This document shows, piece after piece, positions 1,665 to 10,286 of a stretch of DNA of 11,406 nt. The position numbers and the translations under genes were made by a program. Each line of letters opens with the position of its first letter. Position 1 is the first letter of the stretch. The notes beneath the pieces are model-generated. The model was not told the origin of the DNA. It saw nothing but the letters and a program-made list of their open reading frames with translations, and made no database searches. The stretch comes from a virus (taxonomy: Duplodnaviria; Heunggongvirae; Uroviricota; Caudoviricetes): positions 1-11,406 of the IMG/VR virus record IMGVR_UViG_2548877011_000002; one strand, 5' to 3'.

Positions 1665-1952
1665 ATGAAGGTCTTAAACGTAGAGAAGCTTCACAGTTTT
1701 AGCCGGAAGCACAATCAGGCCAAGGGGGCTTTAGACTCTTGGTATGATGAAGTGATAAGAGAAAACTGGAAAACGACTCAAGACATACGGAATAGATTTA
1801 ATTCTGCCGACTTCCTTCCTAACAACAGGGTAATTTTTAATATAAAAGGCAATAACTATCGGCTCGTTGTCCAAGTTGTTTACCAGGCAGGAATGGTCAT
1901 AGTTGAAAGAGTTGGAACTCATGCAGAGTACGACAAGTGGAGGCTTAAATGA
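1665..1952 (+). CDS. higB: HigB-type toxin (RelE/ParE-fold mRNA interferase family)
   Basis: 95-aa ORF; C-terminal half FNIKGNNYRLVVQVVYQAGMVIVERVGTHAEYDKW parallels E. coli HigB (YgjN) ..FNVGGNELRVVAMVFF..CYIREVMTHKEYD as recalled; 4-nt ATGA overlap with the next ORF. Confidence 0.8.
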   Translation: MKVLNVEKLHSFSRKHNQAKGALDSWYDEVIRENWKTTQDIRNRFNSADFLPNNRVIFNIKGNNYRLVVQVVYQAGMVIVERVGTHAEYDKWRLK

Positions 1953-2605
1953 ATCGAACTAGCTGGCGCATCATTAAAAATAGTGAAGAGCATGCTGCAG
2001 CTATGGAAAGGCTCATTGAACTTGCGTCTAGTGATTTACAACCTGGAACTGAAGATTTTGATGAGTTTGAACTACTAGGCTTGCTTATCGAGCACTATGA
2101 GTCACGCGAGTTCCCTATGGACAAGCCAGATCCCATAGAAGCAATCAAGTTCCGTATGGATCAACAAGGCCTCTCTTATGCCGATATGAAACAATACATT
2201 GGCTCAGCATCTAAAGTATCTGAGGTCTTAAATCGTAAGCGTCCATTAAGTCTTTCAATGATCCGTAGACTACATGACGGACTTGGAATTCCTGCAGATA
2301 TCTTAATTCAAGATATGAGCGCAATTGAATGGAGCCTAGTTGACGCAGAGGAAGAAGAAACAGCCATGACTAGCGTCATTGCTCGGTGTGAGTCAGCCGT
2401 CACATCACCTTCTGCTTATTTCGCTGAAAAGGCTACAGAATCTTACTTTTCAAAAATGTTGTTCAGCGCAGTAAGGGGTAATGGCAAATGCAAAGAAAAA
2501 CGGAATGTTTTTTCTTTGATAAGTAACTTGTCATCAAGTTTCACAGCGGCTAGCAACCTGAATGACGAAATGACTTCTGACGGAAATTACTTATTATTAC
2601 CATGA
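1949..2605 (+). CDS. higA: HigA-type HTH antitoxin with a ~90-aa C-terminal extension (candidate chaperone-addiction region)
   Basis: 218-aa ORF; residues ~60-125 (PIEAIKFRMDQQGLSYADMKQYIGSASKVSEVLNRKRPLSLSMIRRLHDGLGIPADILI) parallel the E. coli HigA (YgjM) HTH region as recalled; it then continues ~90 aa beyond where HigA normally ends, Ser/Ala-rich; ATGA overlaps with both neighbours. Confidence 0.75.
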   Translation: MNRTSWRIIKNSEEHAAAMERLIELASSDLQPGTEDFDEFELLGLLIEHYESREFPMDKPDPIEAIKFRMDQQGLSYADMKQYIGSASKVSEVLNRKRPLSLSMIRRLHDGLGIPADILIQDMSAIEWSLVDAEEEETAMTSVIARCESAVTSPSAYFAEKATESYFSKMLFSAVRGNGKCKEKRNVFSLISNLSSSFTAASNLNDEMTSDGNYLLLP

Positions 2606-3006
2606 AAATTGAACTCATTAGCAAAAAAGTTGAACGCTTGGTTATGACACGGCTAGAAGGCGATTCAACAGCAAAAAAAGCCATAAAAACAACCGTTAAT
2701 CTAAATAATGAACTTTACACTAATGTGAAGGATTCAAAGCTATTTAGAGTGAGATATTTTGCCTCCGTAACTATTGAAGGCAGGCTTGAGATGGACATCA
2801 CATACGACTTTGACTTCCGGTCAGAAGATGATTTTTCTCATGAAATGGCAAAATCATATGAGGTAAGGTCCATTGCTCCCAATATGGCATATCCCTATAT
2901 AAAAACATATGCCGAGCAAATTATCCTCATGTCAAACCTTGGTAGGTTCACTCTGCCTTATTTTGATTTCTTGGCCAATCCCATGGAAACGAACAGTAAT
3001 AAGTGA
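2602..3006 (+). CDS. SecB-like chaperone (third component of the cassette)
   Basis: 134-aa ORF translationally coupled to the antitoxin; C-terminal PNMAYPYIKTYAEQIILMSNLGRF..LPYFDF resembles the SecB segment [28 protein letters not shown] as recalled. The similarity is remote and by eye only. Confidence 0.6.
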   Translation: MKIELISKKVERLVMTRLEGDSTAKKAIKTTVNLNNELYTNVKDSKLFRVRYFASVTIEGRLEMDITYDFDFRSEDDFSHEMAKSYEVRSIAPNMAYPYIKTYAEQIILMSNLGRFTLPYFDFLANPMETNSNK

Positions 3007-3014
3007 AATTCCCC

Positions 3015-3040
3015 ACCCGGCCTCAGCGCCGGGTTTTCTT
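3015..3040 (+). terminator. Intrinsic terminator closing the cI/cassette transcription unit
   Basis: ACCCGGC-ctcagc-GCCGGGT stem-loop followed by TTTCTTT, 9 nt after the stop codon of the chaperone ORF. Confidence 0.7.
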
Positions 3041-3477: not shown

Positions 3478-3861
3478 ATGACACGCAGAACTCAGTTCAA
3501 AGGCAATTCTCGTTCTCGTCGTCGTGAGCGTTTAAAGGCAAAGGCATTAGCTAACGGCGTACTGGCCCGCGAAGAAGCAATAAGTTCAGAAGTATTACAC
3601 CGCCCAACTCTAAGTAGAGCGCAGATTCAGGCTAAAGGTACTCACGAAACGCCTGATCGCATAGAAGACGCTAAGCCAATTAAGTTCATGGCACAGGACG
3701 TGATCTGGCAGCAGGAAGAATACAGACGCAATCTGGAGCGAGCGGCCATTGTGTACGCGAATGAGTTTGGACATAAGCAACCAGAAACTGGTGTATGTCT
3801 TCCAAATGTAGCTCTTTACGCGGCAGGCTACCGGAAATCCAAACAACTGACAGCAAGATGA
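3478..3861 (+). CDS. N: N-type transcription antiterminator (P22 gp24-like)
   Basis: Arginine-rich N-terminus (MTRRTQFKGNSRSRRRERLKAK); C-terminus ..VALYAAGYRKSKQLTAR close to P22 N ..VALYAAGHRKSKQITAR as recalled; AGGAGG at 3466-3471 before the ATG at 3478. The track start at 3412 is in frame but lacks an RBS. Confidence 0.8.
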   Translation: MTRRTQFKGNSRSRRRERLKAKALANGVLAREEAISSEVLHRPTLSRAQIQAKGTHETPDRIEDAKPIKFMAQDVIWQQEEYRRNLERAAIVYANEFGHKQPETGVCLPNVALYAAGYRKSKQLTAR

Positions 3862-3919
3862 CTTGTGTTGGTCGCCAGAAAATGAAATTAGGCAGCAAAC
3901 CACTTATTTGAGGTGATAT

Positions 3920-4390
3920 ATGACAAAATCATGGAGCGTACCTTTTCCTGAATCAGAAACTGAACATGATGGAATGCCTGTTTTCTGGAGATTCCAGGCG
4001 ACAGTTGAAGAAGATGGGATAAAAATATTCGCACTTCAATATATAGCTTTTCATCAGACAGAGCATTATGCATGGTTGGTTCCTGCGCATTGGATTGTTA
4101 ATTTTAAACCAGCACCAAATCAGTGGTTACAGGAATGGAAACAAAGGAGAAATAGATATGCAATTAAGAAAGTAGCAAAAAATGCAGAAAGATCTTTTGC
4201 ATTCCCAACGAAGAAACTTGCCATTGAAAGTTTATTGCGCCGGAAGAAATACCATTTAATGAGAATCAAACAAGATTTGGCTGTTGTATCAACTCTTGTT
4301 GATGGTATGAAGAATATTGATACATCAACACCAGATATTGAATATAACTTTGGACACAACCAAGAAACAGAAAATTGGGTATTTTATTAG
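3920..4390 (+). CDS. Hypothetical protein (156 aa) in an AT-rich island between N and ea10
   Basis: Complete ORF with GAGGTGA before the ATG; no family recognised; visibly AT-richer than its neighbours; followed by an inverted repeat and an intrinsic terminator. Confidence 0.5.
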   Translation: MTKSWSVPFPESETEHDGMPVFWRFQATVEEDGIKIFALQYIAFHQTEHYAWLVPAHWIVNFKPAPNQWLQEWKQRRNRYAIKKVAKNAERSFAFPTKKLAIESLLRRKKYHLMRIKQDLAVVSTLVDGMKNIDTSTPDIEYNFGHNQETENWVFY

Positions 4391-4404
4391 TACGAATAAG
4401 CACT

Positions 4405-4432
4405 GTGTATTCATTCCAACGAGTGAATACAC
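4405..4432. repeat. 9-bp perfect inverted repeat GTGTATTCA-N10-TGAATACAC
   Basis: Read directly from the sequence; sits between the 156-aa ORF and the terminator; could be a protein-binding site or RNA hairpin. Confidence 0.5.
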
Positions 4433-4494
4433 GGAGCAATGTCGCTCGTAACTAAACAGGAGCCGACTTGTTCTGATTATTGGAAATCTTCTTT

Positions 4495-4520
4495 GCCCTC
4501 CAATGTGAGGGCGATTTTTT
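4495..4520 (+). terminator. Intrinsic terminator
   Basis: GCCCTC-caatgt-GAGGGC followed by GATTTTTT. Confidence 0.7.
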
Positions 4521-4540
4521 ATCTGTGAGGATATGAACAG

Positions 4541-4909
4541 ATGTCAAACATCAAAAAATACATCATTGATTACGACTGGAAAGCATCAATAGAAATTGAA
4601 ATCGACCATGACGTAATGACAGAGGAAAAACTTCACCAGATTAATAATTTCTGGTCAGACTCTGAATACCGACTCAATAAACACGGCTCTGTATTAAATG
4701 CTGTATTAATCATGCTGGCGCAACATGCTCTGCTTATAGCAATTTCAAGCGACTTAAATGCATATGGTGTTGTGTGTGAGTTCGACTGGAATGATGGAAA
4801 TGGTCAGGAAGGATGGCCTCCAATGGATGGTAGCGAAGGAATAAGAATTACCGATATCGATACATCAGGAATATTTGATTCAGATGATATGACTATCAAG
4901 GCCGCCTGA
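4541..4909 (+). CDS. ea10: Ea10-like protein (lambda ea10 position, upstream of cIII)
   Basis: 122-aa ORF, the same length and position as lambda ea10 and with a sequence I believe matches it; GAGGA RBS upstream. Identity is from memory only. Confidence 0.55.
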   Translation: MSNIKKYIIDYDWKASIEIEIDHDVMTEEKLHQINNFWSDSEYRLNKHGSVLNAVLIMLAQHALLIAISSDLNAYGVVCEFDWNDGNGQEGWPPMDGSEGIRITDIDTSGIFDSDDMTIKAA

Positions 4910-4981
4910 GTGCGGCTTTACCGCATACCAATAACGCTTCACTCGAGGCGTTTTTCGTTATGTATAAATAAGGAGCACACC

Positions 4982-5146
4982 ATGCAATATGCCATTGCAG
5001 GGTGGCCTGTTGCTGGCTGCCCTTCCGAATCTTTACTTGAACGAATCACCCGTAAATTACGTGACGGATGGAAACGCCTTATCGACATACTTAATCAGCC
5101 AGGAGTCCCAAAGAATGGATCAAACACTTATGGCTATCCAGACTAA
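4982..5146 (+). CDS. cIII: CIII (FtsH inhibitor that protects CII)
   Basis: 54-aa product [54 protein letters not shown] matches lambda CIII as recalled; AAGGAG at 4970-4975. The track's GTG start at 4910 is an upstream in-frame extension. Confidence 0.85.
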   Translation: MQYAIAGWPVAGCPSESLLERITRKLRDGWKRLIDILNQPGVPKNGSNTYGYPD

Positions 5147-5333: not shown

Positions 5334-5630
5334 ATGAACGCTTATTACATTCAGGATCGTCTTGAGGCTCAGAGCTGGGCGCGTCACTACCAGCAGATCG
5401 CCCGTGAAGAGAAAGAGGCAGAACTGGCAGACGACATGGAAAAAGGCCTGCCCCAGCACCTGTTTGAATCGCTATGCATCGATCATTTGCAACGCCACGG
5501 GGCCAGCAAAAAAGCCATTACCCGTGCGTTTGATGACGATGTTGAGTTTCAGGAGCGCATGGCAGAACACATCCGGTACATGGTTGAAACCATTGCTCAC
5601 CACCAGGTTGATATTGATTCAGAGGTATAA
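5334..5630 (+). CDS. gam: Gam (RecBCD inhibitor), short 98-aa form
   Basis: Sequence [51 protein letters not shown].. essentially identical to lambda GamS as recalled. Confidence 0.9.
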
Positions 5631-5635
5631 AACGG

Positions 5636-6421
5636 ATGAGTACAGCACTCGCAACGCTGGCTGGGAAGCTGGCTGAACGTGTCGGCATGGATTCTGTCGA
5701 CCCACAGGAACTGATCACCACTCTTCGCCAGACGGCATTTAAAGGCGATGCCAGCGATGCGCAGTTCATCGCATTGTTGATCGTCGCCAACCAGTACGGC
5801 CTTAATCCGTGGACGAAAGAAATTTACGCCTTCCCTGATAAGCAGAACGGCATCGTTCCGGTGGTGGGCGTTGATGGCTGGTCCCGCATCATCAATGAAA
5901 ACCAGCAGTTTGATGGCATGGACTTTGAGCAGGACAATGAATCCTGTACATGCCGGATTTACCGCAAGGACCGTAATCATCCGATCTGCGTTACCGAATG
6001 GATGGATGAATGCCGCCGCGAACCATTCAAAACCCGCGAAGGCAGAGAAATCACCGGACCGTGGCAGTCGCATCCCAAACGGATGTTACGGCATAAAGCC
6101 ATGATTCAGTGTGCCCGTCTGGCCTTCGGATTTGCTGGTATCTATGACAAGGATGAAGCCGAGCGCATTGTCGAAAATACCGCATACACTGCAGAACGTC
6201 AGCCGGAACGCGACATCACTCCGGTTAACAATGAAACCATGCAGGAGATTAACACTCTGCTGATCGCCCTGGATAAAACATGGGATGACGACTTATTGCC
6301 GCTCTGTTCCCAGATATTTCGCCGCGACATTCGCGCATCGTCAGAACTGACACAGGCCGAAGCAGTGAAAGCTCTTGGATTCCTGAAACAGAAAGCCACT
6401 GAGCAGAAGGTGGCAGCATGA
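5636..6421 (+). CDS. bet: Bet (Red-beta single-strand annealing protein)
   Basis: 261-aa product near-identical to lambda Bet as recalled ([37 protein letters not shown]..). Confidence 0.95.
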
Positions 6422-7098
6422 CACCGGACATTATCCTGCAGCGTACCGGGATCGATGTGAGAGCTGTCGAACAGGGGGATGATGCATGGCACAAATTACG
6501 GCTCGGCGTCATCACCGCTTCAGAAGTTCACAACGTGATAGCAAAGCCCCGCTCAGGAAAGAAGTGGCCTGACATGAAAATGTCCTACTTCCACACCCTG
6601 CTTGCTGAGGTTTGCACCGGTGTGGCTCCGGAAGTTAACGCTAAGGCTCTGGCCTGGGGAAAACAGTACGAGAACGACGCCAGAACCCTCTTTGAGTTCA
6701 CTTCCGGCGTTAATGTTACTGAATCCCCGATCATCTATCGCGACGAAAGTATGCGCACCGCCTGCTCTCCCGATGGTTTATGCAGTGACGGTAACGGCCT
6801 TGAGCTGAAATGCCCGTTTACCTCCCGGGATTTCATGAAGTTCCGGCTCGGTGGTTTCGAGGCCATAAAATCGGCTTACATGGCCCAGGTGCAGTACAGC
6901 ATGTGGGTGACGCGAAAAGATGCCTGGTACTTTGCCAACTATGACCCGCGTATGAAGCGTGAAGGCCTGCATTATGTCGTGATTGAGCGGAATGAAAAGT
7001 ACATGGCGAATTTTGACGAGATGGTGCCGGAGTTCATCGAAAAAATGGACGAGGCACTGGCTGAAATTGGTTTTGTATTTGGGGAGCAATGGCGATGA
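6418..7098 (+). CDS. exo: Exo (Red-alpha 5'-3' exonuclease)
   Basis: 226-aa product near-identical to lambda Exo as recalled ([62 protein letters not shown]..); 4-nt overlap with bet. Confidence 0.95.
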
Positions 7099-8689: not shown

Positions 8690-9445
8690 ATGATTCACTA
8701 CCACGGTGGGCCTATTACTCCTGATACGTGCGCAATGAGAGCATGGAAAGGGCGACATGCGTTTATCAGTTTTGCGCATTCAGGCCAGATCAATCTCGCG
8801 GCTGAATACTGTCAGTCGTTCGCGCTGGACAACGGTGCATTCACCGCCTGGAAAGCAGCTGGCAAAAACAAAATCGACTGGAGCGATTACTACGAGTTTG
8901 TTGCTCGCTGGAAGAATCACCCAGGATTCGATTTTGCCATTATCCCGGATGTTATTGATGGCGGAGAGGAGGAAAATGATGCGCTTCTGAATGAGTGGCC
9001 TCACGGAAAACTAGCTGGCGTTCCAGTGTGGCACATGAATGAAAGTGACGAGCGATTTATTCATTTGTGCAATGAGTTTCCGCGAGTGGCTATCGGTAGT
9101 TGTGGCGACTATGACGTAAAGCGCCCAACTCTTGCGGTAGCCAGAATGAAAGACCTGATTCGTCACATTGTTGATGGGCATGGTCAGCCGGTTACGAAAC
9201 TACATGGATTGCGCATGTTAAATCCGCTGATATTCACAAAATTACCCTTAGCCAGCGCAGATAGTACGAACGTCGCTCGAAACATCGGTATTGATAAAGC
9301 CTGGTCTGGGGCTTATGCACCTGCAAGTAAAGAGACACGCGCAGCATTAATGGTAGAACGGATTGAGGCACACAATAGCCCTGGTTCTCTTGCGTATTGT
9401 GAACAACGCGACCGCTTTGAAATGCAATTGCAACTAGCACTTTAA
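8690..9445 (+). CDS. TGT-fold protein, candidate DpdA-like DNA transglycosylase (7-deazaguanine DNA modification)
   Basis: 251-aa product from the ATG at 8690 (AAAGGAGAG RBS; the track's 8447 start lies inside the upstream gene). Collinear motif resemblance to tRNA-guanine transglycosylase: FALDNGAF vs LTDSGGFQ, FDFAIIPDVIDG vs DIVMIFDECTPY, FPRVAIGSCGDY vs GFDGYAVGGLAVGE, LASADSTNV vs GIDMFDCV. By eye only. Confidence 0.4.
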   Translation: MIHYHGGPITPDTCAMRAWKGRHAFISFAHSGQINLAAEYCQSFALDNGAFTAWKAAGKNKIDWSDYYEFVARWKNHPGFDFAIIPDVIDGGEEENDALLNEWPHGKLAGVPVWHMNESDERFIHLCNEFPRVAIGSCGDYDVKRPTLAVARMKDLIRHIVDGHGQPVTKLHGLRMLNPLIFTKLPLASADSTNVARNIGIDKAWSGAYAPASKETRAALMVERIEAHNSPGSLAYCEQRDRFEMQLQLAL

Positions 9446-9455
9446 GGACTAACAA

Positions 9456-10286
9456 ATGACCACTATTACCAAAGAACGTATTGAATTGTTCATTAAAAAT
9501 CCGCTTGAAAACGGGCTTACTCGTGGCGAACAAATGGAACTGGCACGAATTGCACTGGCATCACTGGAACGCGAACTGATTCGCCACGAGCATGCCAAAT
9601 GGTCTGACTCCACATTTGGCTGCGTTGGCCCCATTGGTCCACTGAAACACCTCTCAAAAGAGGCTCTGGAAGCCGCAGCCGAACCAGACGATCTCAGCGA
9701 GTGGGCTGATATGCATTTCCTGTTGTGGGATGCACAGCGCCGTGCTGGCATCAGCGATGCTGAAATTACCGCTGCTATGGAAGATAAATTGAAGATCAAC
9801 ATGGAGCGCCAGTGGCCTGAACCAAAAGATGGTGAGCCTCGCTTGCACATTAAAGAACCCGGCAACTCTCCGGTAATTCCGGATGGTTTATCCACGGTAT
9901 GCGCTGAGGCTTATCAGGTTGTAGGAGTTATGGCAGATGCGCTTGGTGTATTCGGTGATGCAGCAGTACAGAAAGTTCTGGATAACCTGTCACAGCAAAA
10001 ACTTGTTCACAGAGATGTGCTGCCGTTCTCGCTTCCGGCAACTCCGGATGGTTGGATAAGCTGTAGTGAGCGAATGCCTGAAATGGGAGAGCGACAATGC
10101 TATGTGTTAGCAGCTGACTTTAAAAACAACTACCCACCAAACATCCCCAACACTCAGGTCGGCGTATATGGCGACTGGTTTAATGATGGCAAGCCCACTT
10201 GGGATGACGGTGATGGCGAAGACCTGTATCTCAAAGAGGTAACCCACTGGATGCAGCTACCAGAACCGCCGCAGGAGGTGAAATGA
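9456..10286 (+). CDS. DUF550 (dATP/dGTP pyrophosphohydrolase-like) plus DUF551 two-domain prophage protein
   Basis: 276-aa ORF; N-terminal region (HEHAKWSDSTFGCVGPIGPLKHLSKEALEAAAEPDDLSEWADMHFLLWDAQRRAGISDAEI) matches the recalled DUF550 pattern; C-terminal DGWISCSERMPE..VLAADF.. matches the DUF551 pattern. Confidence 0.55.
   Translation: MTTITKERIELFIKNPLENGLTRGEQMELARIALASLERELIRHEHAKWSDSTFGCVGPIGPLKHLSKEALEAAAEPDDLSEWADMHFLLWDAQRRAGISDAEITAAMEDKLKINMERQWPEPKDGEPRLHIKEPGNSPVIPDGLSTVCAEAYQVVGVMADALGVFGDAAVQKVLDNLSQQKLVHRDVLPFSLPATPDGWISCSERMPEMGERQCYVLAADFKNNYPPNIPNTQVGVYGDWFNDGKPTWDDGDGEDLYLKEVTHWMQLPEPPQEVK

What the first reader, a model, noticed from the sequence alone, without database searches (positions are those of the whole stretch)
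3920..4390. AT-rich orphan ORF between N and ea10, a second candidate cargo gene
The 156-aa ORF has no family I recognise and is visibly more AT-rich than the flanking N and recombination genes. It is followed by a 9-bp perfect inverted repeat and an intrinsic terminator. It occupies the variable region after N where lambda carries ral and sieB-type functions. Composition and position suggest horizontally acquired cargo, possibly with an exclusion or anti-restriction role.
Basis: inference. Interest (0 to 1): 0.5.

Follow-up and report, generated by a model that had tools for sequence, protein, structure and literature searches.

The report
Swappable early gene after phage N
The 156-codon ORF is a real but uncharacterised early phage gene (933W L0079) in the exchangeable slot where lambda carries ral, and the hairpin and terminator after it are lambda's conserved PreS small RNA and tL2a terminator, not part of the gene.

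Summary
The ORF (3920-4390, 156 aa) is real. It has a strong Shine-Dalgarno sequence, the lowest GC in the window (0.357; GC3 0.268), and its protein is under purifying selection. It is 100% identical to Φ24B vb_24B_11c and is the gene annotated L0079 in 933W; every source calls it "hypothetical". It occurs in 598 of 5,426 complete E. coli genomes.

It is one of several unrelated cassettes (ral, ral+sieB, VT2-Sakai orf20) that swap between two conserved junctions. The 5' junction is the post-N linker, including the ribosome-binding site and the ATG. The 3' junction is a 122-nt block starting 9 nt after the stop codon.

It is lambda's Hfq-dependent sRNA PreS/LPR1, ending in terminator tL2a, so it is backbone and not the ORF's own terminator.

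The ORF has no promoter of its own. In Φ24B its transcript rises 43-fold on induction, like gam, bet and ea10 and unlike lysogen-expressed genes.

The protein has a basic core and acidic tails. Its confident model (pLDDT 93) has no analogue among solved structures. Distant relatives lie in early-gene arrays of many phages.

Best reading: an early, pL-driven host- or defence-modulating protein. Function is untested. A sieB-like exclusion role is disfavoured.

The parts
3478..3861 (+). Antiterminator gene N (933W/H-19B type), immediately upstream in the pL operon
   Evidence: Pfam N_peptide E 1.6e-15. PHROG 271. Annotated N in 933W, BP-4795 and Φ24B.
3859..3922 (+). Conserved 5' junction: N stop codon, 58-nt linker, Shine-Dalgarno GAGGTGAT (3910-3917) and the ATG. 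Shared with phages that carry other genes in the slot.
   Evidence: Identical up to and including the ATG in VT2-Sakai (orf20) and near-identical in mEp234. The last 35 nt are shared with HK544 ral. The megablast breakpoint at query 382 equals window 3859.
3920..4390 (+). ORF156 coding sequence (= 933W L0079 = Φ24B vb_24B_11c; PHROG 1636). The cassette-specific DNA is 3923-4399.
   Evidence: ORF list. 100% protein identity to vb_24B_11c. PHROG 1636 E 2.7e-112. pS 0.78-0.90 against pN 0.18-0.27 versus homologs. AF2 model pLDDT 93.2, pTM 0.81.
4405..4432 (+). Hairpin: 12-bp stem (9 bp perfect), loop CAAC. It is the first element of the conserved 3' junction and ends one base before the PreS 5' end.
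   Evidence: Identical in lambda, HK544, mEp234 and VT2-Sakai. Its role in processing is inferred.
4434..4520 (+). PreS/LPR1 Hfq-dependent sRNA of the early-left operon. Its 3' end is the intrinsic terminator tL2a (stem 4493-4514, T run 4515-4520).
   Evidence: The LPR1 cloning primer's 5' end maps at 4434-4453 and the wild-type seed region at 4450-4498. The paper places LPR1 between ea10 and ral with tL2a as its 3' end, about 88 nt. There is one base difference from lambda, in the terminator loop. Terminator scan. RNA fold z = -4.69.
4541..4909 (+). ea10 (DUF2528), the next gene downstream. It is part of the lambda-like backbone.
   Evidence: Pfam DUF2528 E 1.8e-47. Lambda alignment.

Best explanation
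ORF156 is a genuine protein-coding accessory cassette in the exchangeable slot directly after N in the pL (early-left) operon of Stx-type lambdoid phages.

Shown:
- It has no regulatory elements of its own. It uses the ribosome-binding site and ATG of a conserved linker.
- It is followed by the conserved hairpin-PreS-tL2a block.
- Its transcript rises with the pL operon on prophage induction.
- The protein is constrained by selection. It has a predicted alpha/beta fold with no solved analogue.
- It belongs to a phage-restricted family found in early-gene arrays.

Inferred:
- No intrinsic terminator is predicted between N and tL2a, so it is probably made together with N as one of the first phage proteins.
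- It is a cytoplasmic 18.6-kDa protein with a strongly basic core (15 K/R in residues 75-130) between acidic tails.
- It most likely acts in the infected or induced cell by binding a nucleic acid or a host protein. The purpose would be to modulate a host function or neutralise a host defence.
- That would make it a functional counterpart of Ral, but not a homolog of it.
For: Gene reality:
- 40 invariant columns across 20 homologs at 55-85% identity.
- Synonymous sites are saturated while pN is 0.18-0.27.
- The model is confident once 71 diverse sequences are used (pLDDT 93.2).

Slot anatomy:
- Lambda identity starts at window 4400.
- The 5' linker is shared through the ATG with orf20 and ral phages.
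- The 3' block is shared with lambda, HK544, mEp234 and VT2-Sakai.
- Megablast breakpoints recur at the same positions in many records.

Operonic, early expression:
- No promoter-like site lies upstream on the + strand, and no terminator-like site lies between the N stop codon and 4493.
- In homologs the gene starts 3 nt after N (L007) or overlaps the upstream gene (L009).
- It is always on the pL/xis/int strand.
- The identical Φ24B protein vb_24B_11c rises 43-fold on norfloxacin induction. Compare ssb/ea10 79, bet 89, gam 137 and cro 45, against stk 1.8, res 1.2, int 1.7 and bor 1.4.

Lytic-phase role:
- Fold relatives and a weak sequence relative occur in diverse phages such as Erwinia phiEa2809, Achromobacter phiAxp-3 and Pantoea LIET2.

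Charge layout.

Positional analogy:
- The slot's best-known occupant is the anti-restriction gene ral.
- Silas et al. treat this region as an accessory region enriched in counter-defence genes and defence triggers.
- A DNA methyltransferase lies within about 2 kb upstream of distant family members in three independent contexts.
Against: - No functional assay exists for this protein.
- There is no homology to Ral, orf20 or Salmonella ORF15, nor to any Pfam, NCBIfam or PADLOC family.
- The Φ24B fold change carries P = 0.273 in the authors' test, as do exo, bet, gam and ssb.
- Rho-dependent terminators and non-consensus promoters cannot be excluded with these scans.
- The methyltransferase proximity is weak evidence, because early regions often carry methyltransferases.
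- In four of ten contexts the gene lies next to xis/int. That fits a role in phage DNA transactions equally well.
- The protein was not found in the held supplementary text of two accessory-gene screens.
Confidence: 0.5

Rival explanations
1. It is a regulator or accessory factor of the phage's own development or DNA transactions. Examples would be a DNA-binding protein affecting recombination, excision, replication or the lysis-lysogeny decision, like the exo-xis region genes, and not a counter-defence factor.
For: - Basic core with many conserved K/R residues.
- The gene lies immediately upstream of xis/int or AlpA/int in Pectobacterium, Brenneria and metagenomic prophages.
- Elsewhere it lies upstream of recombination genes.
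- It is expressed with the early-left operon.
Against: - It is dispensable and swapped for unrelated genes between identical junctions. That is typical of accessory functions and not of regulatory ones.
- It combines freely with different N, recombination and immunity modules.
- No helix-turn-helix or other known DNA-binding domain was detected.
Confidence: 0.25
2. It is a prophage-expressed superinfection-exclusion or defence gene of the sieB type that protects the lysogen.
For: - It occupies the region where lambda and Salmonella phages carry sieB.
- It is AT-rich like many lysogenic-conversion genes.
- The same window carries defence-like cargo in the rexAB slot.
Against: - It is on the same strand as the pL operon and operonic with N, with no promoter-like site upstream. 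In lambda and in Salmonella phage 118970_sal4, sieB is on the opposite strand.
- The transcript rises 43-fold on induction, while lysogen-type genes stay at about 1-4-fold.
- There is no PADLOC match.
- The fold family occurs in very diverse phages.
Confidence: 0.08
3. The ORF has no protein function. The DNA serves only as the 5' part of the PreS precursor transcript, or is a chance ORF.
For: It lies directly upstream of PreS on the same transcript.
Against: - Strong protein-level conservation with saturated synonymous sites.
- Homologs occur in loci that show none of this N-to-ea10 backbone, for example next to xis/int; PreS itself was not searched for in those loci.
- The fold prediction is confident.
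- The probability of the ORF arising by chance is about 3e-6.
Confidence: 0.02

Closest known systems
Lambda Ral (restriction alleviation protein)
   Same: Same slot and same expression frame. In HK544 ral starts at the same ATG behind the same linker and Shine-Dalgarno sequence, and it is followed by the same hairpin-PreS-tL2a block. Both are early pL-operon accessory genes.
   Different: No sequence or profile similarity (hhalign probability 0.06%). Ral is 66 aa and ORF156 is 156 aa. The ral cassette ends with its own small intrinsic terminator, annotated in mEp234, and the ORF156 cassette lacks one. The function of ORF156 is untested.
VT2-Sakai orf20 / mEp234_034 (83-aa hypothetical)
   Same: An alternative occupant of the identical slot with identical junctions. 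Also uncharacterised.
   Different: Unrelated protein. Less frequent in complete E. coli genomes: 403 against 598.
SieB superinfection-exclusion protein (lambda, P22-like phages)
   Same: Encoded in the same N-proximal variable region.
   Different: sieB is on the opposite strand. ORF156 is on the pL strand, operonic and induced with the lytic program. No homology was detected.
PHROG 1636 and the related PHROGs 13631, 25384 and 28215 (phage proteins of unknown function)
   Same: ORF156 is a full-length member of PHROG 1636 (E 2.7e-112). Distant relatives match the other three. BFVD holds 13 fold matches at E <= 1e-3, all uncharacterised.
   Different: These are catalogue families with no function attached, so membership says nothing about mechanism.
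Lambda sRNA PreS/LPR1 with terminator tL2a (for the downstream hairpin and terminator)
   Same: Window 4434-4520 equals lambda's LPR1 except for one base in the terminator loop. The seed region is intact.
   Different: Nothing substantive. Expression and Hfq binding in this phage were not tested.

Membership tests
PHROG 1636 (uncharacterised phage protein family) | Full-length match to the family profile | tested here: met
   E 2.7e-112; residues 1-156 match profile positions 1-156.
Ral (restriction alleviation) | Sequence or profile homology to lambda Ral | tested here: not met
   hhalign of the 71-sequence profile against Ral: probability 0.06%, 1 aligned column.
Ral (restriction alleviation) | Location in the N-proximal slot of the pL operon, upstream of tL2a | tested here: met
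   Same linker, Shine-Dalgarno sequence and ATG, and same 3' block, as ral in HK544 and lambda.
Ral (restriction alleviation) | Alleviates type I restriction of unmodified phage DNA | not testable with these tools
   Needs plating of unmodified phage on EcoKI+ cells with and without ORF156.
SieB-type superinfection exclusion | Homology to SieB | tested here: not met
   No SieB family among the Pfam or PHROG hits.
SieB-type superinfection exclusion | Expressed in the lysogen, independently of pL | tested here: not met
   No promoter-like site upstream. The identical Φ24B gene rises 43-fold on induction, while stk, res, int and bor stay at 1.2-1.8-fold (authors' P = 0.273).
Moron (autonomous cargo unit of lambdoid phages) | Own promoter upstream | tested here: not met
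   The consensus scan finds none on the + strand between N and the ORF. The linker is shared backbone. A non-consensus promoter cannot be excluded.
Moron (autonomous cargo unit of lambdoid phages) | Own terminator downstream | tested here: not met
   The terminator is tL2a within the conserved PreS block, which is present whatever the cassette.
Moron (autonomous cargo unit of lambdoid phages) | Atypical composition, and presence/absence among close relatives | tested here: met
   GC 0.357 and GC3 0.268. Alternative occupants of the slot.
Known anti-phage defence systems (PADLOC-DB v2) | Match to a defence-protein profile | tested here: not met
   Only a chance-level Cas1_II hit, E 0.018, 12 bits.
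PreS/LPR1 sRNA with tL2a (downstream element) | Sequence identity to lambda LPR1, including the seed, and a GC hairpin plus U tract at the 3' end | tested here: met
   Primer-defined 5' end at 4434, wild-type seed at 4450-4498, terminator at 4493-4520.
PreS/LPR1 sRNA with tL2a (downstream element) | Hfq binding, accumulation in the lytic cycle, regulation of dnaN and alaS | not testable with these tools
   Shown for lambda in bioRxiv 10.1101/2024.10.31.621285. Not tested for this phage.
Tudor/KOW/SH3-like small beta-barrel domains | Significant structural superposition | tested here: not met

The most novel reading that the evidence does not exclude
ORF156 founds a new-fold family of immediate-early phage counter-defence proteins. 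It would be a functional analogue of Ral, made together with N at the very start of infection or induction. It is carried by the main Stx phages (933W, H-19B, Φ24B, BP-4795) and by 11% of complete E. coli genomes, so it could influence which hosts can acquire stx phages.
Probability: 0.25. Interest if true: 0.6.

Novelty: new member of a known kind. Interest (0 to 1): 0.38.

Why it matters
- The gene is transcribed next to N at the onset of Stx-phage induction, the event that leads to Shiga toxin release. It has remained "hypothetical" since 933W was sequenced.
- It is common: 598 of 5,426 complete E. coli genomes, with up to four copies per genome.
- It has a confident predicted fold with no solved analogue.
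- It sits in a slot whose known occupant is an anti-restriction gene, so it is a cheap and well-defined candidate for a new counter-defence or host-takeover function.
- The precise junctions offer a natural design for isogenic cassette swaps (ral, orf20, ORF156).
- Recognising PreS/tL2a directly downstream corrects the "cargo with its own terminator" reading. It also shows that the mRNA of whichever cassette occupies the slot is the precursor of a host-targeting sRNA.

Tried and rejected
1. orf184 of Silas et al. It lies in the same accessory region as ral and triggers the gop-beta-cII system. I suspected it was ORF156, but its deposited model starts MEALVVERSEDGYWT, so it is a different gene.
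2. Motif searches for ORF156 in the held supplements of that preprint and of PMC12373910 found nothing.
3. Ral, VT2-Sakai orf20 and Salmonella ORF15 as distant homologs: rejected by hhalign.
4. Pfam, NCBIfam and PADLOC on the protein, and Pfam on all 71 family members: no family.
6. afdb50 was not available.
7. The first structure prediction, from the 20 close homologs alone, was poor (pLDDT 59.5) and was not used.
8. An AP2- or integrase-arm-like DNA-binding reading of the 'RSFAF-TK--A' motif has no tool support and was dropped.
9. Literature searches by L0079, NP_049479, ST933Wp19, AAD25424, ADN68407, vb_24B_11c and phrog_1636 found no paper on the gene.
10. Minus-strand ORFs overlapping ORF156 are not conserved in homologs.
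11. Rfam has no family for the hairpin or PreS region. The only hit in the window is the cIII thermoregulator.

Full report
**Setting**

The window is the early-left region of a lambdoid Stx-type phage, with the + strand running in the pL direction. Its best match is phage BP-4795 (88% covered at 98.7% identity). The gene order is as follows:

| Feature | Coordinates |
|---|---|
| cII (minus strand) | 42-338 |
| cro (minus strand) | 477-710 |
| cI | 824-1528 |
| three-gene cargo | 1665-3006 |
| N | 3478-3861 |
| the ORF in question | 3920-4390 |
| ea10 | 4541-4909 |
| cIII, kil | between ea10 and gam |
| gam | 5334-5630 |
| bet | 5636-6421 |
| exo | 6418-7098 |

- The ORF runs 3920-4390 and encodes 156 aa, with GAGGTGAT at 3910-3917.
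- At its composition, a 156-codon stop-free run has a probability of about 3e-6.
- GC is 0.357 and GC3 is 0.268, the lowest values in the window. N is 0.484 and gam/bet/exo are 0.505/0.524/0.521. ea10 is also low at 0.388.
- The 9-bp perfect inverted repeat is at 4405-4413 / 4424-4432. As RNA it forms a 12-bp stem.
- The intrinsic terminator has its stem at 4493-4514 and six T at 4515-4520.
- Pfam, NCBIfam and PADLOC give no family. PHROGs places the protein full-length in phrog_1636, of unknown function.

**It is a real gene that is already catalogued but not characterised**

- The DNA is 99.9-100% identical to annotated 'hypothetical protein' genes of BP-4795, 933W (L0079, AAD25424.1 / NP_049479.1), Min27 and many Stx1a and Stx2a phages. 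By tblastn the protein is also encoded in phage 86 and H-19B.
- The protein is 100% identical to Φ24B vb_24B_11c.
- It occurs in 598 of 5,426 complete E. coli genomes, with up to four copies per genome.
- The exact sequence is on at least 1,000 contigs and is always named 'hypothetical' or 'prophage protein'.
- Close homologs (55-85% identity) are confined to Enterobacterales: Cronobacter, Pectobacterium, Brenneria, Rosenbergiella and Symbiopectobacterium. They share 40 invariant columns.
- Against four of these homologs, synonymous sites are saturated (pS 0.78-0.90) while pN is 0.18-0.27, which shows clear purifying selection on the protein.
- Minus-strand ORFs inside the gene are not conserved.
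- No paper in the searchable library names the gene under any identifier I could find.

**The slot and its junctions**

Aligned with lambda, identity begins at window 4400, nine bases after the TAG stop. It continues through the hairpin, the terminator and ea10. Upstream of that point lambda has ral, orf28 and sieB instead.

Megablast of N-to-ea10 against phages shows the same breakpoints in many records. These are query 382 (window 3859, the N stop codon), query 923 (window 4400) and query 1043-1045 (window 4520-4522, the end of the T run).

Fetching examples confirmed the alternative occupants:

| Phage | Occupant(s) of the slot |
|---|---|
| VT2-Sakai | an unrelated 83-aa orf20 (plus orf19) |
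| mEp234 | mEp234_034, annotated as similar to VT2-Sakai orf20 |
| HK544 | ral |
| lambda | ral, orf28 and sieB |
| Salmonella phage 118970_sal4 | sieB (opposite strand) plus ORF15 |

- The 5' junction is shared right through the Shine-Dalgarno sequence and the ATG itself.
- The 3' junction is shared from GCACTG at 4400 onwards.
- The cassette proper is therefore 3923-4399, essentially a bare coding sequence.
- Profile comparison shows no relationship between ORF156 and Ral, orf20 or ORF15.
- In complete E. coli genomes the 3' block is present in 2,237 genomes (3,198 places). ral is in 877 genomes, ORF156 in 598 and orf20 in 403.

**The hairpin and terminator are PreS/tL2a**

A 2024 preprint (bioRxiv 10.1101/2024.10.31.621285) describes the lambda sRNA LPR1, renamed PreS:

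- It lies between ea10 and ral.
- It is about 88 nt long and is processed to about 68 nt.
- It is Hfq-dependent and specific to the lytic cycle.
- Its 3' end is terminator tL2a of the early-left operon.
- It activates dnaN translation and represses alaS.

The authors' cloning primer begins GAGCAATGTCGCTCGTAACT, which maps uniquely to window 4434-4453. The wild-type version of their seed-mutagenesis primer maps to 4450-4498. PreS is therefore window 4434 to about 4520. It is identical to lambda apart from one base in the terminator loop.

The inverted repeat (4405-4432) ends one base before the PreS 5' end, and the whole block folds unusually stably (z = -4.69). I infer, without a test, that the hairpin helps define or insulate the 5' end of PreS from whichever cassette lies upstream.

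They are not part of the cargo.

**Expression**

- No sigma-70-like site is found on the + strand between N and the ORF. No terminator-like site lies between the N stop codon and 4493.
- In homologous loci the gene starts 3 nt after N (L007) or overlaps the preceding gene by 8 nt (L009).
- It is always on the strand of N, xis and int. It lies either right after N (Cronobacter, L007) or right before xis/int (Pectobacterium, Brenneria, L009).
- SI Table 4 of PMC4651098 gives the response of Φ24B genes to norfloxacin induction:

| Gene | Fold change on induction |
|---|---|
| vb_24B_11c (identical to ORF156) | 43.2 |
| ssb/ea10 | 78.7 |
| bet | 89.3 |
| gam | 136.7 |
| cIII | 70.4 |
| cro | 44.9 |
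| stk | 1.8 |
| res | 1.2 |
| vb_24B_13c | 0.65 |
| int | 1.7 |
| bor | 1.4 |

- The authors' P value for vb_24B_11c is 0.273. It is the same for exo, bet, gam and ssb, so I treat the number as consistent with pL-operon behaviour and not as proof.
- I infer that the ORF is co-transcribed with N before the first intrinsic terminator, which would make it immediate-early. Rho-dependent termination cannot be assessed here.

**The protein**

- It is 18.6 kDa with pI 9.1. It has an acidic N-terminus (1-55), a very basic core (15 K/R in 75-130) and an acidic C-terminal tail with invariant aromatic and polar residues.
- A profile search of 1.84 billion representatives found 87 hits. These include a distant family of 130-155-aa proteins at about 20% identity that share G33, E46-T47, K87, an R/S-F-A motif and A101.
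- These relatives match only PHROGs of unknown function (1636, 13631, 25384, 28215) and no Pfam family.
- With the 71-sequence alignment AlphaFold2 gives a confident model (pLDDT 93.2, pTM 0.81). It has three long beta strands (19-30, 33-46, 50-55), two short helices, a fourth strand (83-86), a 33-residue helix (98-130) and an ordered tail.
- It does match 13 uncharacterised viral proteins in BFVD at E <= 1e-3, from phages of Erwinia, Achromobacter, Delftia, Rhizobium, Sinorhizobium, Tenacibaculum and Cellulophaga.
- Distant members lie in dense arrays of small early genes: prophages of Marinobacterium and metagenomic hosts, Pantoea phage LIET2, a Vibrio phage and a Klebsiella phage. A DNA methyltransferase lies within about 2 kb upstream in three independent cases.
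- In every locus the gene is 3-7 GC points below its surroundings.

**Interpretation**

The following points are shown:

- The gene is real.
- It is an exchangeable cassette with exact junctions.
- It has no regulatory elements of its own.
- It behaves like the pL operon on induction.
- It belongs to a phage-restricted family with an unsolved fold.
- PreS/tL2a lies directly downstream.

The following points are inferred:

- It acts early in the infected or induced cell.
- It works by binding a nucleic acid or a host protein.
- It most plausibly modulates a host function or counters a defence, as Ral does in the same slot.

I put this reading at about 0.5. A role in the phage's own DNA transactions or developmental decisions is the main rival at about 0.25. 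It is supported by the basic core and by the frequent position next to xis/int. A sieB-like, lysogen-expressed exclusion function is disfavoured at about 0.08. A non-coding or chance ORF is effectively excluded.

**Novelty and score**

- The downstream element is already known (PreS/tL2a).
- The ORF is a long-annotated hypothetical gene in a known variable slot, so it is a new member of a known kind and not a new kind of system.
- A specialist would not be surprised by an uncharacterised accessory gene here.
- Four things make it a reasonable experimental target: its prevalence, its immediate neighbourhood to N in Stx phages, its unsolved fold and the clean swap design.
- Interest is 0.38.

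Noticed in passing
window 1665-3034: The three-gene cassette between cI and pL occupies lambda's rexAB slot. It consists of a HigB-like toxin (1665-1952), a 218-aa HTH protein (1949-2605) and a 134-aa ORF (2602-3006). These match PADLOC profiles PD-Lambda-2_A (E 2.5e-42), the N-terminal third of PD-Lambda-2_B (E 3.8e-50) and PD-T4-9_C (E 3.2e-11). A terminator-like site follows at 3015-3034.
   Followed up: partly
L012 1285-1311; L013 about 664-693; lambda between the ral stop and the hairpin: The ral and orf20 cassettes end with their own small intrinsic terminator (GGCTGCC-TGAT-GGCGGCC followed by a T run; annotated in mEp234), just upstream of the hairpin-PreS block. The ORF156 cassette lacks it. 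The amount of read-through into PreS could therefore differ between cassette types.
   Followed up: no
window 4969-5027: Rfam Lambda_thermo (RF01804), the cIII thermoregulator element, matches at 88.5 bits. It is the only Rfam family found in the window. PreS has no Rfam family.
   Followed up: no
window 8690-10286: A 251-aa ORF (8690-9445) has no Pfam family. It is followed by a 276-aa protein with dATP/dGTP pyrophosphohydrolase (PF04447, E 1.3e-41) and DUF551 domains. This could be a nucleotide-pool or DNA-modification pair.
   Followed up: no
L008 3374-5305; L009 4068-4982; L017 2465-3181: A DNA methyltransferase gene lies within about 2 kb upstream of distant ORF156-family members in three unrelated phage or prophage contexts. 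This may be coincidence, because early regions often carry methyltransferases.
   Followed up: partly
literature: bioRxiv 10.1101/2023.04.06.535777: Another gene of the same 'ral' accessory region, orf184, is reported to trigger the gop-beta-cII abortive system of P4-like satellites. It is not ORF156. It does show that this slot holds genes that interact with host defences.
   Followed up: yes
L013 about 786 (VT2-Sakai PreS): VT2-Sakai PreS has a T-to-C change (GCCGACCTG against GCCGACTTG) just upstream of the seed region. This window matches lambda there.
   Followed up: no
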